The position numbers were made by a program. 64,000 bases of DNA, taken from positions 149,695-213,694 of the forward strand of contig JACKLD010000012.1 in assembly GCA_024236095.1 (NCBI GenBank). Direction: 5' to 3'. Origin of the DNA: Pseudomonadaceae bacterium. Lineage in GTDB: Bacteria; Pseudomonadota; Alphaproteobacteria; UBA2136; UBA6156. Positions within the stretch are counted from its first letter, which is position 1. Each line of letters opens with the position of its first letter. Shown here one piece after another: positions 12,001-15,000 of this stretch.

Positions 12001-15000
12001 CTTCCATATACTTCTGCAGCCTCACAATCGGGTCACGCGCCTCACGCACCCCTTCCACCTCTTCCCGTGTACGGTATTTGCTGGGGTCGCTCATGCTGTG
12101 GCCGCGGTAGCGGTAGGTGTCCATTTCCAACAGATAGGGCCCCTTTCCCTCGCGCACATGGCGCGACGCCTTTTCCACCGCGTCAAACACCGCAAACATG
12201 TCCATGCCGTCCACCTTCTCGCCGGGGATGCCGAACGGCTCGCCACGTTTGTACAGCTCGCCCGCCGCCGCACGCGGCACACTGGTACCCATGCCCCAGT
12301 GGTTGTTTTCAATAATGAACACCACCGGCAACTTCCACAAAGCCGCCATGTTGAAGGTCTCAAAGGTCTGCCCCGCATTCATCGCGCCGTCGCCGATGAA
12401 CGTGTAACATACCCGCTCCTCGCCCTTGTATTTGGCGGCAAACGCCAAACCTGCGCCAATCGGCACCTGCGCCGCCACAATGCCATGGCCGCCCCAAAAA
12501 CGCTTGTCGGGGTCAAACATGTGCATGCTGCCGCCCTTACCCTTGGAAATCCCGATGGTTCGCCCGGTCAACTCGCCCAACACCTCCTCACCAGAAAGCC
12601 CGCAAGCCAGCGCAAGCACATGACAGCGGTAGCTGGTGATGAAGTCATCGCCGGGCAGGCTCGCCAGTTTGGTGCCAATCGCCACCGCCTCCTGCCCGAT
12701 GTACAAATGGCAAAAGCCCAGAATCTCCTGCTGCTGGTACAAACTGGCGGTCTTTTCCTGAAAACGCCGCGCATACAGCATCGCCTTGTAGGCGGCCTCC
12801 AGCGTATCCGGCGTCAACCCCAGACGCTCATGCAGCGGCGCATCCTTTTCCGCCTTGGCGGGGACCTTGGCGCGCGGCTTCTTCTGCAACGGGAACGGCA
12901 GCATGATGGGCGAAGCGGCGGTGGCAAAACTGTGGCTCATGGCAAGGTTTTCTTCCGTAATTCACGCGCGCAACAGGCGCGGCCCCACCATGCCAAAAAG
13001 GCGTCATTTTACCAAGAAAATTCGTTTGTGCAGCGCAACACAAACACCCCGCCACCGCCTACCTTGCAGGCGCTTGGTCAGACATCGGTCAAGCCGCCCC
13101 AACCACCCGACGCAACGCCGCCAGCATGCCAAGGTCGAAGTGTTTGGAATGGCTCATGGTTTCCAGCGCCATTTCCTTACCCATGGCCTCGCGGTGGGCA
13201 CGGGCACTGGTCAACGCCATATAGGCGTCGGCAGCGCCCAACAGGCGTGCCATGCGGTGGATTTCGTCCCCCTTCAACCCATGGGGATAACCGCTGCCAT
13301 CCACCCGCTCGTACATCTGCTGGATAACCGCCACCACCGGCAGGTCAAACGCCACCTCGCCCAGCACACTTTGCGCTCTGGAGATATGCCCCTCAAGCTC
13401 GGCACGCTCGGCGTCCGAGAGCTTGCCCTTCTTCGCCAGCAATTCACGGGGCACCAGCAAGCGCCCCACGGCAGAGAGCTTGGCGGCGTAAAACAACGTG
13501 GCGCGCTCTCCCACCTTGAAGTGTAGGTTGTTGGCCAATTGCAAGGTCAGACGCGCCAGCTTGTCATGATGACCGGCCAAATACGGGTCGCGCGCCTCCA
13601 CCATGCGCACCAAGGCATCCATGGTTTGGCCCAACAACGCCACGCGGGTGCGGTTACGCTGGGCCATCAGATGCAGCGTCAGCGCCAGCATCAATGCCGC
13701 CAACACCCCCACCGCCAGCAATGTAATCAGGTACAGGCCGGGCCGGTACACGTCCATCAGCGCCAAGGCATCATGGGCACGGTATTCCTGCAAAACCGCA
13801 AACGGCGTGCCGGCAATCGGCCGAACATCAGCAAAGGTGCGGCTGGCATCCACCACACTGGGCGCAATGGTTTTTCCGCTATGCAACTCAGCCAGCAAGT
13901 TATCCAACCCCATCGCCAACGGCACGGTGCTGGCCGGACCCACCACGCTCAGTTTGCCGCCTTCTTCCTGCAACAGCGCGGTGCGCTCGCCCACACGGTC
14001 CAGCGGCGTGCGCGCCACCAGCTCGGTCAACTTGGCTCCAACCGGCACACTCACCCACAAACTCCCCACCATGGCGGCATCGGTGCCTTCCTGCGTGGGG
14101 GCCTTGATGGGCCGCAGCACATCCATCACCACCCGCGCTCCGTCACGCCGCAGCGGCAACACCGCACCTTGCCCCTGCGCGGCACGCTGCAACACCTCCG
14201 GACGGTTCACCAACTCGGCGGGCATCGGCCCGAAACTCACCAAGGCATTGCCGGTGCGGTTCAACACGTACACCGAGGCAAACCCGTTCCGCGCCGCAAT
14301 ATCCTTCACCATTTGCTGCATGTACGGCGCTTGCGCCTGCAACGCTTCAGCCATCTCTCCGTTGCCGGTGCCGCTGCCAAGCTCAGCCACATACAACCGT
14401 ACCAACTGGGTCTGCGCCACCGCATCCACCACGCCTTCAACTCCCTGCAACCACTGGGAAATCACCTGCGCCCGCGCCTGCCCCTGCATCGCCACGCGGG
14501 TGGCGGTATCTTCCACCAGCTGCGCCTGACGCTGCCCCACCAGCACCTGCGACAGCAAAAAGCCCACCGCCAACGCCCCCAGCACAATCAGCATCACCCA
14601 GCCGATGAAATGCTGCATCGGCACATTGCCCCTGTACCCGTTCACCCGCCCCATATCGGCCAGCTGGGCGTAGGCCATCGGCACGGTTTGGCTTGAAACC
14701 GGCACCACTTTCGGCCCCACCATGCGCACCGGCGCGGGCTTGGCGGGAGAGGCCTTTTTGCCGCGCGCGGGCGCCACTTTTTTGGCAGGCACCTTGGCAG
14801 CCTTGCGGGCCACGTTCTTGGCGGGCTTGACGGTTTTACGGGTGGGTTTGCGTGGGGCCATGGCTCTTATCTTTTTGTCGGATTAACAAACACCCAGCGG
14901 GTGGTCTTATTCACCGCATAGTACGGACGATACTGCAAAACCTGCTTGTGCGGCAAGGGCTTGGTGGCCAAATTGTCCAGAATCCAATAGGTATCGGCAT

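What the first reader, a model, noticed from the sequence alone, without database searches (positions are those of the whole stretch)
13089..13700. The HD-GYP domain looks catalytically degenerate, as expected for a receptor rather than a phosphodiesterase
I aligned the domain by eye to the canonical HD-GYP motif order (H...HD...H...HDxGK...H...HHExxDGxGYP...D). The first HD (HHDKLARL) and the GYP (YERVDGSGYPHGL) are kept. The HDxGK position reads KLSAVGRL (HD to SA). The HHE before DGxGYP reads QQMYE (two His lost). The Asp in the FDALTS-like helix is Met (AYMALTS). Losing several metal ligands while keeping the GYP loop mirrors how LapD keeps a binding-competent but inactive EAL.
Basis: partly seen in the sequence, partly recalled or inferred. 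Interest (0 to 1): 0.8.

Follow-up and report, generated by a model that had tools for sequence, protein, structure and literature searches.

The report
PAS-less DvhD-type c-di-GMP receptor
This membrane protein carries an HD-GYP domain that has lost its key metal-binding residues, and it is most likely a sensor for the signal c-di-GMP that controls release of a surface adhesin; that role was shown experimentally for its Desulfovibrio relative DvhD in 2024 and 2026, and this copy is a shorter version without the PAS domain.

Summary
ORF 13089..14861(-) encodes a 590-aa protein: TM1, periplasmic dCache, TM2, then HD-GYP. Three alignment methods agree. The HD dyad is S463/A464 and the HH pair is M516/Y517, so four ligands are lost. 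The equivalents of PmGH H189, H250 and D305 are kept (H431, H492, D545). Its Asp-to-Met change is PmGH D308, a second-shell residue, not a ligand.

The receptor reading is supported. The best sequence and fold matches for both domains are DvhD of Desulfovibrio vulgaris. DvhD is a degenerate HD-GYP protein shown to bind c-di-GMP (Kd about 0.1 µM), to lack hydrolytic activity, and to control the LapG-like protease DvhG. Most DvhD c-di-GMP contacts are kept here. The gene follows a LapG-like protease gene and type I secretion genes, and an adhesin with a PAAG cleavage motif lies next to them.

The new element is architecture. There is no PAS domain, and TM2 continues as one helix into the HD-GYP domain. 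This short form is a conserved clade of uncultured Alphaproteobacteria and Magnetococcales. Verdict: new variant of a known kind, modest interest. No biochemistry was done on this protein.

The parts
13089..14861 (-). Receptor gene, 590 aa: disordered Lys/Ala/Pro-rich N-terminal tail (1-58), TM1, periplasmic dCache, TM2-stalk helix, degenerate HD-GYP
   Evidence: ORF; Pfam HD_5; AF2 model with mean pLDDT 87.5; best PDB matches are DvhD
14553..14609 (-). TM1 (residues 85-103)
   Evidence: Hydropathy peak 2.61; helix 82-149 in the model
13731..14552 (-). Periplasmic double-Cache domain (about residues 104-377)
   Evidence: phmmer to DvhD periplasmic domain 9rc2, E 3.3e-6; Foldseek to 9rc2, TM 0.79, rmsd 3.0 Å, followed by dCache chemoreceptor ligand-binding domains; weak Pfam dCache_1
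13590..13763 (-). One continuous predicted helix, residues 367-424: TM2 (378-396) plus the juxtamembrane stalk with the invariant Q401-R402-N403..R406-V407 motif. It leads straight into the HD-GYP domain, so there is no PAS domain
   Evidence: Secondary structure; TM2-to-HD-GYP gap of 29 residues against 163-180 in PAS-containing relatives; no PAS hit even at E<=10; invariant columns
13143..13613 (-). HD-GYP domain (Pfam HD_5, residues 417-573)
   Evidence: Foldseek to c-di-GMP-bound DvhD HD-GYP 9rbz, TM 0.80-0.82, rmsd 2.4-3.0 Å, 37% identity
13470..13475 (-). S463-A464, in place of the name-giving HD dyad (PmGH H221/D222)
13311..13316 (-). M516-Y517, in place of the HH pair (PmGH H276/H277)
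13284..13292 (-). G524-Y525-P526, an intact GYP motif. Y525 corresponds to DvhD Y621, which contacts a c-di-GMP phosphate
   Evidence: contact list from PMC13090378
14867..15502 (-). LapG/DvhG-like BTLCP cysteine protease, 211 aa, with a signal-peptide-like N-terminus. GDCEDY at 124, AHAILV at 160 and ILDNL at 174 align with the Cys, His and Asp regions of solved LapG proteins
   Evidence: Pfam Peptidase_C93, E 1.5e-20; NCBIfam LapG below cut-off; PDB 4u65 and 4fgo, E 2e-19 and 3e-15; motif positions
15506..16996 (-). Type I secretion membrane-fusion protein (HlyD family)
   Evidence: TIGR01843, E 2e-107
16997..19282 (-). Type I secretion ABC permease/ATPase (LssB type) with a weak N-terminal C39-like domain
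   Evidence: TIGR03375, E 2e-257; Pfam
19370..20761 (+). TolC-like outer-membrane factor, divergently transcribed
   Evidence: Pfam OEP, E 8e-49
20882..25099 (+). Large adhesin, 1405 aa: N-terminal beta-rich module, ten Big_9/cadherin-like repeats, a poly-Pro stretch, and a C-terminal region rich in Asp/Gly/Asn motifs
   Evidence: Pfam; translation; N-terminal module conserved in L001 and L002
21332..21343 (+). P151-A152-A153-G154 in 'AEVEPAAGP', a candidate LapG/DvhG cleavage site just after the N-terminal module
   Evidence: Matches the [T/A/P]AAG consensus quoted in PMC13090378; the same (E/Q)PAAGP occurs at the aligned position in two homologous loci

Best explanation
The gene encodes a DvhD-type inner-membrane receptor for c-di-GMP. 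Its HD-GYP domain no longer hydrolyses the nucleotide and works as a binding and switch module.

Shown by sequence and fold:
- The HD dyad and the HH pair are replaced (S463/A464, M516/Y517). Both carboxylates that bridge the metal pairs in PmGH (D222, E185) are absent.
- The fold, the GYP loop and most residues that contact c-di-GMP in the DvhD crystal structure are kept.
- Both the HD-GYP domain and the periplasmic dCache domain are most similar to DvhD.
- The gene is the last in a conserved ABC, MFP, LapG-like protease, receptor cluster, next to a TolC gene and an adhesin gene with a PAAG site.

Inferred by analogy with DvhD and LapD:
- At high c-di-GMP, nucleotide binds the canonical site and probably a dimer-bridging site. 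This changes how the stalk helices pack.
- The change passes through the membrane to the dCache domain, which then restrains the LapG-like protease. The adhesin stays anchored in its TolC pore.
- At low c-di-GMP the protease is free and cuts the adhesin at PAAG, so cells detach.

Specific to this protein: there is no PAS domain. The stalk that carries the HD-GYP domain is the direct continuation of TM2, so the switch would act on the membrane helices without an intermediate domain.
For: Ligand loss: with PmGH ligand identities and alanine-mutant data.

Homology to DvhD: phmmer E 2e-33 for the HD-GYP domain and 3e-6 for the dCache domain; Foldseek TM 0.80-0.82 and 0.79.

DvhD experiments (no metal, no hydrolysis, Kd 99 nM, stalk splaying, control of DvhG): PMC13090378 and PMC10990149.

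Contact residues:
- Kept: Y523 = Y427, L577 = L481, Y621 = Y525, R650 = R554 (66/66 in the family), R653 = R557 (66/66).
- Conservatively replaced: K582 to R486, M646 to L550, Y652 to H556.
- Bridging site: K520 to R424 (66/66) and P567 = P471 (66/66).

Synteny with the LapG-like gene and type I secretion genes: 3 of 3 metagenome contigs and nearly all complete short-class genome loci.

Adhesin module and PAAG.

No PAS.
Against: - No binding or activity measurement exists for this protein or for any short-class member.
- Two DvhD contacts are not kept. E668, the guanine N2 contact, is S572 here and varies across the family. R569 at the bridging site is E473.
- Three former ligands (H431, H492, D545) and D425 are conserved or invariant, although Desulfovibrio-type proteins have often lost H189 and D305. 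This conservation is unexplained and could mean a residual metal site.
- How DvhD restrains DvhG is not established even in Desulfovibrio.
- No GGDEF or EAL gene lies in the window, so a c-di-GMP source in this organism was not shown.
Confidence: 0.8

Rival explanations
1. The domain keeps a reduced metal site built from H431, H492, D545 and D425. It then either hydrolyses c-di-GMP slowly or needs a metal to bind the nucleotide, so it would not be a purely metal-free receptor.
For: H431, D545 and D425 are invariant and H492 nearly so across 63 aligned family members. Desulfovibrio-type relatives tolerate Q at H189 and N at D305. In PmGH the D305A and E185A mutants keep some activity.
Against: H221A, D222A, H276A and H277A each abolish PmGH activity, and all four positions are lost here. 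The bridging carboxylates D222 and E185 are absent. No canonical site keeps more than two ligands. DvhD, which keeps H189 and H250, shows no bound metal and no activity. The conserved residues could be structural, since PmGH D308 forms hydrogen bonds with H189.
Confidence: 0.08
2. It is a receptor, but for a different nucleotide, such as 3'3'-cGAMP or pGpG, rather than c-di-GMP.
For: The DvhD residue that reads the guanine amino group (E668) is S572 here and varies (G/S/T/N) in the family. DvhD itself binds 3'3'-cGAMP with Kd about 0.5 µM. The closest active enzyme by sequence is the cGAMP-specific V-cGAP3 (E 4e-24).
Against: The phosphate and base-stacking contacts shared with c-di-GMP-bound DvhD are kept. 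Every Lap/Dvh system studied so far responds to c-di-GMP. No cGAMP synthase was seen in the window.
Confidence: 0.1
3. Signalling runs mainly outside-in. The dCache domain binds a periplasmic ligand, and the inactive HD-GYP domain is an output that contacts other proteins, as proposed for RpfG, or for HnoD, which inhibits the EAL-domain phosphodiesterase HnoB. Protease control would then be secondary.
For: dCache domains are typical extracellular ligand sensors (Foldseek matches to chemoreceptor ligand-binding domains). Inactive HD-GYP proteins that act through protein contacts are documented (HnoD, RpfG).
Against: The receptor gene is tightly and widely linked to the LapG-like gene. The c-di-GMP contact arginines and the bridging-site Pro and Arg are invariant. 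The homologue DvhD acts inside-out on DvhG in cells. The two modes could also coexist, as in LapD.
Confidence: 0.07
4. It is an active HD-GYP phosphodiesterase, and the apparent degeneracy is an alignment artefact.
For: Pfam scores the domain well.
Against: Three independent alignment methods and a fold comparison agree on the register. Pfam's generic HD model (PF01966) gives no hit for the query even at E<=10, and 62 of the 66 closest homologues (P0001-P0066) carry no precomputed PF01966 hit, whereas 14 of the 18 more distant HD-GYP hits do.
Confidence: 0.02

Closest known systems
DvhD (DVU1020) of Desulfovibrio vulgaris Hildenborough; PDB 9rbz, 9rc0, 9rc2; Karbelkar et al. 2024 (PMC10990149); Font et al. 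2026 (PMC13090378)
   Same: Inner-membrane protein with a periplasmic dCache domain and a cytoplasmic HD-GYP domain that has lost the HD and HH ligands. Most c-di-GMP contacts are shared, including the bridging-site Pro and a basic residue. It is encoded with a LapG-like protease, a type I secretion system and an adhesin with an AAG site. It is the best sequence and fold match for both domains.
   Different: - The query has no PAS domain between TM2 and HD-GYP: the gap is 29 residues against about 166.
- Replacement residues differ: SA against SQ, and MY against MN.
- D305 is kept here (D545) but is Asn in DvhD.
- E668 and R569 are not kept.
- The partner protease has a signal-peptide-like N-terminus rather than the transmembrane anchor and long linker of D. 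vulgaris DvhG.
- The host is an uncultured proteobacterium, most likely alphaproteobacterial, not a sulfate reducer.
- Identity is only 37% in the HD-GYP domain and 23% in the dCache domain.
LapD of Pseudomonas fluorescens and its orthologues (the Lap system)
   Same: Same logic and same partners. A transmembrane c-di-GMP receptor built from an inactivated c-di-GMP-metabolising domain controls a periplasmic BTLCP protease, and that protease cuts a type I-secreted adhesin at a di-alanine site.
   Different: No homology in the receptor. LapD has a LapD/MoxY periplasmic domain, HAMP, and degenerate GGDEF and EAL domains, and binds c-di-GMP through the EAL domain. None of these domains is detected here. 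LapD captures LapG through a conserved Trp. The contact surface for the DvhD type is unknown.
Active HD-GYP phosphodiesterases: PmGH (4mcw), PA4781 (4r8z), V-cGAP3 (5z7c)
   Same: Same fold (Foldseek TM 0.74-0.77 to PA4781). The GYP loop, the first His, H250, D305 and the RxxR/K substrate-binding motif are shared.
   Different: The HD dyad and the HH pair are absent, K225 is Arg, and D308 is Met. Enzymes of this class need two or three metals.
Other inactive HD-GYP proteins: HnoD of Shewanella oneidensis (HD to SE, HHE to QLE) and ECA3548 of Pectobacterium (HD to HT, HHE to ANE)
   Same: The same two motifs are degenerate, and the role is regulatory rather than catalytic.
   Different: Those are soluble REC- or PilZ-linked proteins that act on other cytoplasmic proteins. 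They are not membrane receptors linked to a protease and an adhesin.

Membership tests
Catalytically active HD-GYP phosphodiesterase | HD-GYP fold (Pfam HD_5) | tested here: met
   HD_5 E 4.5e-32; Foldseek to PA4781, PmGH and DvhD
Catalytically active HD-GYP phosphodiesterase | HD dyad (PmGH H221/D222) in the HDxGK motif | tested here: not met
   S463/A464 by three alignment methods; K225 is R467
Catalytically active HD-GYP phosphodiesterase | HH pair (PmGH H276/H277) before ExxDGxGYP | tested here: not met
   M516/Y517
Catalytically active HD-GYP phosphodiesterase | Remaining ligands: first His (H189), H250, D305 | tested here: met
   H431, H492, D545
Catalytically active HD-GYP phosphodiesterase | GYP motif | tested here: met
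   G524-Y525-P526; 46 of 66 family members have GHP instead
Catalytically active HD-GYP phosphodiesterase | Metal-dependent hydrolysis of c-di-GMP | not testable with these tools
   Needs an HPLC assay on purified protein
DvhD-type c-di-GMP receptor | HD-GYP domain with the HD and HH ligands replaced | tested here: met
   DvhD has SQ and MN
DvhD-type c-di-GMP receptor | Residues that contact c-di-GMP at the canonical site of 9rbz | tested here: met
   Of 9 positions, 5 are identical (Y427, L481, Y525, R554, R557), 3 are conservative (R486, L550, H556) and 1 is not kept (E668 to S572)
DvhD-type c-di-GMP receptor | Bridging-site residues (K520, P567, R569) | tested here: inconclusive
   R424 and P471 are invariant in the family, but R569 is E473. 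Whether a third nucleotide binds cannot be told from sequence
DvhD-type c-di-GMP receptor | Periplasmic dCache domain homologous to that of DvhD | tested here: met
   phmmer E 3.3e-6 to 9rc2; Foldseek TM 0.79, rmsd 3.0 Å
DvhD-type c-di-GMP receptor | Cytoplasmic PAS domain between TM2 and the HD-GYP stalk | tested here: not met
   No PAS hit at E<=10; 29-residue gap; single helix 367-424 in the model; PAS_4 found in 4 of 4 long-class relatives and 0 of 3 short-class proteins
DvhD-type c-di-GMP receptor | Encoded with a BTLCP protease, a type I secretion system, and an adhesin with a retention module and an AAG site | tested here: met
   conserved in homologous loci
DvhD-type c-di-GMP receptor | Binds c-di-GMP without hydrolysis and controls the protease in cells | not testable with these tools
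   Needs ITC or nanoDSF, HPLC, and reconstitution
LapD (GGDEF-EAL receptor) | LapD/MoxY periplasmic domain, HAMP, and degenerate GGDEF and EAL domains | tested here: not met
   None of these Pfam families hits the protein even at E<=10

The most novel reading that the evidence does not exclude
The short, PAS-less clade may be more than a trimmed DvhD. It keeps three former metal ligands and D425 almost invariantly, although Desulfovibrio-type receptors often lose H189 and D305. It also lacks the guanine-reading Glu of DvhD. It could therefore use a single residual metal or a different contact set. That might give a different nucleotide preference (for example 3'3'-cGAMP or pGpG) or slow turnover that resets the switch. 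In either case the signal would pass directly through one continuous TM2-stalk helix.
Probability: 0.12. Interest if true: 0.55.

Novelty: new variant of a known kind. Interest (0 to 1): 0.33.

Why it matters
So the concept is not new.

This locus adds two things. First, the same solution occurs well outside sulfate reducers. I found a conserved clade of at least 24 species-level genome or contig loci and about 66 protein clusters, from uncultured Alphaproteobacteria and Magnetococcales. Second, this clade does without the PAS domain that the published model places in the signalling path. A natural minimal receptor (dCache, TM, stalk, HD-GYP) would be a simpler object for asking how nucleotide-induced stalk movement crosses the membrane. 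It also shows that the PAS domain is not essential to the design. For annotation, these proteins are currently labelled 'HD-GYP phosphodiesterase' or 'hypothetical', and that label is probably wrong about their activity.

Tried and rejected
- The 1907-aa ORF at 19400..25123(-) was rejected as an antisense artefact of the repetitive adhesin gene. Its translation is Gly/Val/Asp/Arg-rich low-complexity sequence. The real genes there are TolC (19370..20761, +) and the adhesin (20882..25099, +).
- An exact-sequence look-up of the query protein's contig found nothing.
- I searched the supplements of PMC13090378 for the taxonomic classes in its Fig. 9b and found none of the class names I tried (Alphaproteobacteria, Gammaproteobacteria, Desulfovibrionia) or Rhodospirillales. 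So I cannot say whether the authors already saw alphaproteobacterial members. Their BLASTp used an 80% coverage cut-off, which would tend to exclude PAS-less proteins.
- My first numbering anchor for DvhD was wrong: I assumed K582 was the Lys of SQVGK, and the check residues failed. I re-anchored on R650-S-Y652-R653, after which all 12 check residues matched.
- P0068, a PAS-containing relative with SQ and MH, is not next to a LapG-like gene on its contig, so it says nothing about synteny.
- The genome scan used the peptide patterns YERxDG[ST]G[HY]P and V[GA]ERATL[YF]Y. The uniform 'MY' at the HH position among those loci is therefore partly a result of the pattern. The independent word-based protein search shows the same residues in the short family.
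- A basic residue at the DvhD K582 position looked like a shared derived feature. It is hydrophobic in most long-class alphaproteobacterial proteins, so I dropped that claim.
- The neighbour-joining tree has no bootstrap. A single loss of PAS is a suggestion only.
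Full report
**What is at the coordinates.** Region 13089..13700 is the 3' part of a 590-aa ORF on the minus strand (13089..14861). Pfam finds one significant domain, HD_5 (the HD-GYP model), at residues 417-573 with E 4.5e-32. Hydropathy gives two transmembrane segments, 85-103 and 378-396. An AlphaFold2 model built on 63 family sequences is confident (mean pLDDT 87.5). It shows a disordered N-terminal tail, a long periplasmic helix, two alpha/beta modules, and a single helix from residue 367 to 424 that runs from TM2 straight into the HD-GYP domain.

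**Scoring the metal ligands.** The eight protein ligands of the PmGH tri-iron centre are E185, H189, H221, D222, H250, H276, H277 and D305. D308 is a conserved second-shell residue that forms hydrogen bonds with H189 and R192. Alanine substitution of H189, H221, D222, H250, H276 or H277 essentially abolishes activity, while E185A and D305A keep some (PMC4159591). D222 bridges one metal pair and E185 the other. I aligned the query in three ways: phmmer pairwise alignments to PDB chains, MAFFT with PmGH, V-cGAP3, PA4781 and DvhD segments plus 84 homologues, and HHalign of the family profile against ten HD-GYP proteins with the full motif set (probability 99.9%, E 1e-34).

All three give the same register:
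- Lost: E185 to Y427, H221/D222 to S463/A464, H276/H277 to M516/Y517.
- Kept: H189 = H431, H250 = H492, E278 = E518, GYP = G524-Y525-P526, D305 = D545, R314/K317 = R554/R557.
- Changed non-ligand residues: K225 to R467 and D308 to M548.

Two details are mis-registered. The 'first HD' in HHDKLARL is not a canonical motif, and only H431 matters there. The Asp that became Met is D308, not the ligand D305, which is retained. Three of eight ligands remain, no canonical site keeps more than two, and both bridging carboxylates are gone.

**Not a one-off.** A protein search returned 66 close relatives (37-70% identity), all annotated as HD-GYP proteins or hypothetical. Every one has (S/A/G)(A/S/G) at the HD position and (M/I/L)Y at the HH position. 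Meanwhile 44 columns are invariant, including H431, D425, D545, P471, R424, R554 and R557. The degenerate state is old and is maintained under selection.

**What it is.** The best PDB matches by sequence are three entries named 'HD domain/sensory box protein'. 9rbz and 9rc0 match the HD-GYP part (E about 1e-33), and 9rc2 matches residues 124-302 of the periplasmic part (E 3.3e-6). Foldseek with the model ranks the same entries first. These are DvhD HD-GYP bound to c-di-GMP (TM 0.80-0.82, rmsd 2.4-3.0 Å, 37% identity) and the DvhD periplasmic domain (TM 0.79, 23% identity). PA4781, PmGH and dCache chemoreceptor domains rank lower.

DvhD is the LapD-like receptor of Desulfovibrio vulgaris. It was predicted to be inactive and shown to bind c-di-GMP in 2024 (PMC10990149), and it was characterised structurally in 2026 (PMC13090378). 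In DvhD the HD motif reads SQ and the HH pair reads MN. No metal is seen in the structure, and there is no hydrolysis with any added ion. The Kd is about 99 nM for c-di-GMP and about 0.5 µM for 3'3'-cGAMP. Three c-di-GMP molecules bind per dimer, at two canonical sites and one bridging site, and the stalk helices splay on binding.

**Binding competence.** I mapped the DvhD contact residues onto the query after correcting a numbering error.
- Canonical site, kept: Y523 = Y427, L577 = L481, Y621 = Y525, R650 = R554, R653 = R557.
- Canonical site, conservative change: K582 to R486, M646 to L550, Y652 to H556.
- Canonical site, not kept: E668 to S572.
- Bridging site: K520 to R424 and P567 = P471, both invariant in the family; R569 to E473.

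The phosphate and stacking contacts are thus in place. The residue that reads the guanine amino group is not, which leaves nucleotide preference open.

**Context.** Upstream on the same strand are three genes:
- A LapG-like BTLCP protease (14867..15502). Pfam Peptidase_C93 gives E 1.5e-20, and PDB LapG structures 4u65 and 4fgo give E 2e-19 and 3e-15. The GDCEDY, AHAILV and ILDNL segments align with the Cys, His and Asp regions, and the N-terminus looks like a signal peptide.
- An HlyD-type membrane-fusion protein.
- An LssB-type ABC exporter.

Divergently transcribed are a TolC-like gene and a 1405-aa adhesin with ten Big_9/cadherin repeats. The adhesin starts with a beta-rich module followed by AEVEPAAGP, which matches the [T/A/P]AAG cleavage consensus. 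The module and the (E/Q)PAAGP site are conserved at the same position in two homologous loci.

The order ABC, MFP, protease, receptor recurs in 3 of 3 metagenome contigs examined. It also recurs in nearly all genome loci of the short class that are not cut by a contig end. This is a complete Lap/Dvh-type adhesin control system.

**What differs from DvhD.** DvhD has a PAS domain between TM2 and the HD-GYP stalk, and the query does not. No PAS model hits it even at E<=10. The distance from TM2 to the HD-GYP domain is 29 residues, and the model shows one unbroken helix.

Across the window plus the 83 loci in which the spacing could be measured, it falls into two classes with nothing in between. 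Spacing is 25-41 residues in 24 proteins including the window. These come from uncultured Alphaproteobacteria or 'Proteobacteria' MAGs and from Magnetococcales. Spacing is 163-180 residues in 60 loci, from Desulfovibrio, Mailhella, Inquilinus, Sneathiella, Rhodospirillaceae and others. Pfam finds PAS_4 in 4 of 4 long-class proteins tested and in none of 3 short-class proteins.

[quoted passage not shown] This suggests one loss of PAS. Other differences are that D305 is kept here (it is Asn in Desulfovibrio-type proteins) and that the protease has a signal-peptide-like N-terminus, unlike D. vulgaris DvhG. I found no description of the PAS-less form in the two DvhD papers, the HD-GYP census, or a LapG plus HD-GYP full-text search. 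The class-level distribution figure of the 2026 paper could not be read.

**Mechanism, with its status.** Shown here are the ligand loss, the retained fold and contacts, homology of both domains to DvhD, the absence of PAS, and the conserved operon. The following steps are inferred from DvhD and LapD. c-di-GMP binds the HD-GYP dimer and changes stalk packing. The change is passed through TM2, here directly, to the dCache domain, which restrains the protease, so the adhesin stays on the surface. When c-di-GMP is low, the protease cuts at A152/A153 and the adhesin is released. Nothing has been measured for this protein, and the way DvhD restrains DvhG is still unknown.

**Rivals.** A residual single-metal site, a different nucleotide preference, and mainly outside-in signalling are not excluded. 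They are less likely, at 0.08, 0.10 and 0.07 respectively. An alignment artefact is excluded by the profile comparison.

**Verdict.** The kind is already known, so this is a new architectural variant and not a new principle. Interest is modest.

Noticed in passing
window 14688-14861 (-), receptor residues 1-58: The receptor starts with a Lys/Ala/Pro-rich, low-complexity tail (MAPRKPTRKTVKPAKNVARKAAKVPAKK...), predicted to be disordered (pLDDT below 50). Among the homologues whose N-termini I saw, only P0002 has a similar tail and P0003 does not, and identity coverage in the rest of the family starts further in. The true start codon may be internal (for example M47 or M62), or the tail may be a lineage-specific cytoplasmic extension.
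   Followed up: partly
window 19400-25123 (-): A 1907-aa ORF lies antisense to the TolC and adhesin genes. Its translation is Gly/Val/Asp/Arg-rich, and it is an artefact of the GC-rich, repetitive adhesin sequence. A gene caller could mis-annotate it.
   Followed up: yes
window 24400-25099 (+), adhesin C-terminus: After a run of nine prolines, the adhesin ends with several Asp/Gly/Asn-rich motifs (DLNGDGIHT, DENGDGIINDINE, DSNGDGVIDANDE, DANEDGVTDAGE). By eye I saw none of the usual GGxGxD RTX nonapeptides. From my own knowledge of calcium-binding loops, these motifs resemble EF-hand or dockerin-type loops. The nature of the type I secretion signal here was not examined.
   Followed up: no
window 11283-11885 (-): An ORF of about 200 aa with one hydrophobic N-terminal segment and no Pfam match sits between the pyruvate dehydrogenase E1 alpha (11864..12940) and E1 beta (10295..11296) genes and overlaps both ends. 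In homologous loci L001 and L002 the two E1 genes are adjacent with nothing between them.
   Followed up: partly
L001 and L002 compared with window 5600-12940: The Lap-like cluster lies next to the pyruvate dehydrogenase gene set (E1 alpha, E1 beta, E2, E3, lipoyl synthase) in the window and in two relatives at about 50% receptor identity. The adhesin system therefore sits in a stable core-genome neighbourhood, not on an obvious mobile element.
   Followed up: partly
window 50001-52000: GC content drops to 0.51 here against about 0.60 elsewhere. The 258-aa ORF at 51245..52021(+) has no Pfam match. The region lies between nuo (complex I) genes.
   Followed up: no
whole window: GC skew is negative in every 2-kb bin (-0.08 to -0.27). 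Most of the genes I identified lie on the minus strand; the TolC and adhesin genes are exceptions. The record name given by NCBI ('Pseudomonadaceae bacterium') disagrees with the Alphaproteobacteria labels on the closest relatives and looks like a naming artefact.
   Followed up: no
family alignment A1, receptor residues 107-130: Nearly invariant periplasmic residues (R111, Q114, L115, T119, R122, V123, Q126, Q128, R130) cluster on the membrane-proximal part of the first long periplasmic helix. This could be the dimer axis or a protease-contact surface. The 2026 DvhD paper points to a dCache helix (alpha1') in its model of the DvhD-DvhG complex.
   Followed up: no
L028, L041, L049-L052 and other Desulfovibrio loci: In most Desulfovibrio-type loci the receptor gene directly follows the membrane-fusion gene, and no LapG-like ORF was detected on the 4-kb upstream side, unlike the ABC, MFP, protease, receptor order in the alphaproteobacterial loci. 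Many of these proteins also have Gln in place of the first-His ligand and Asn in place of D305, so they have degenerated further than the window protein.
   Followed up: partly
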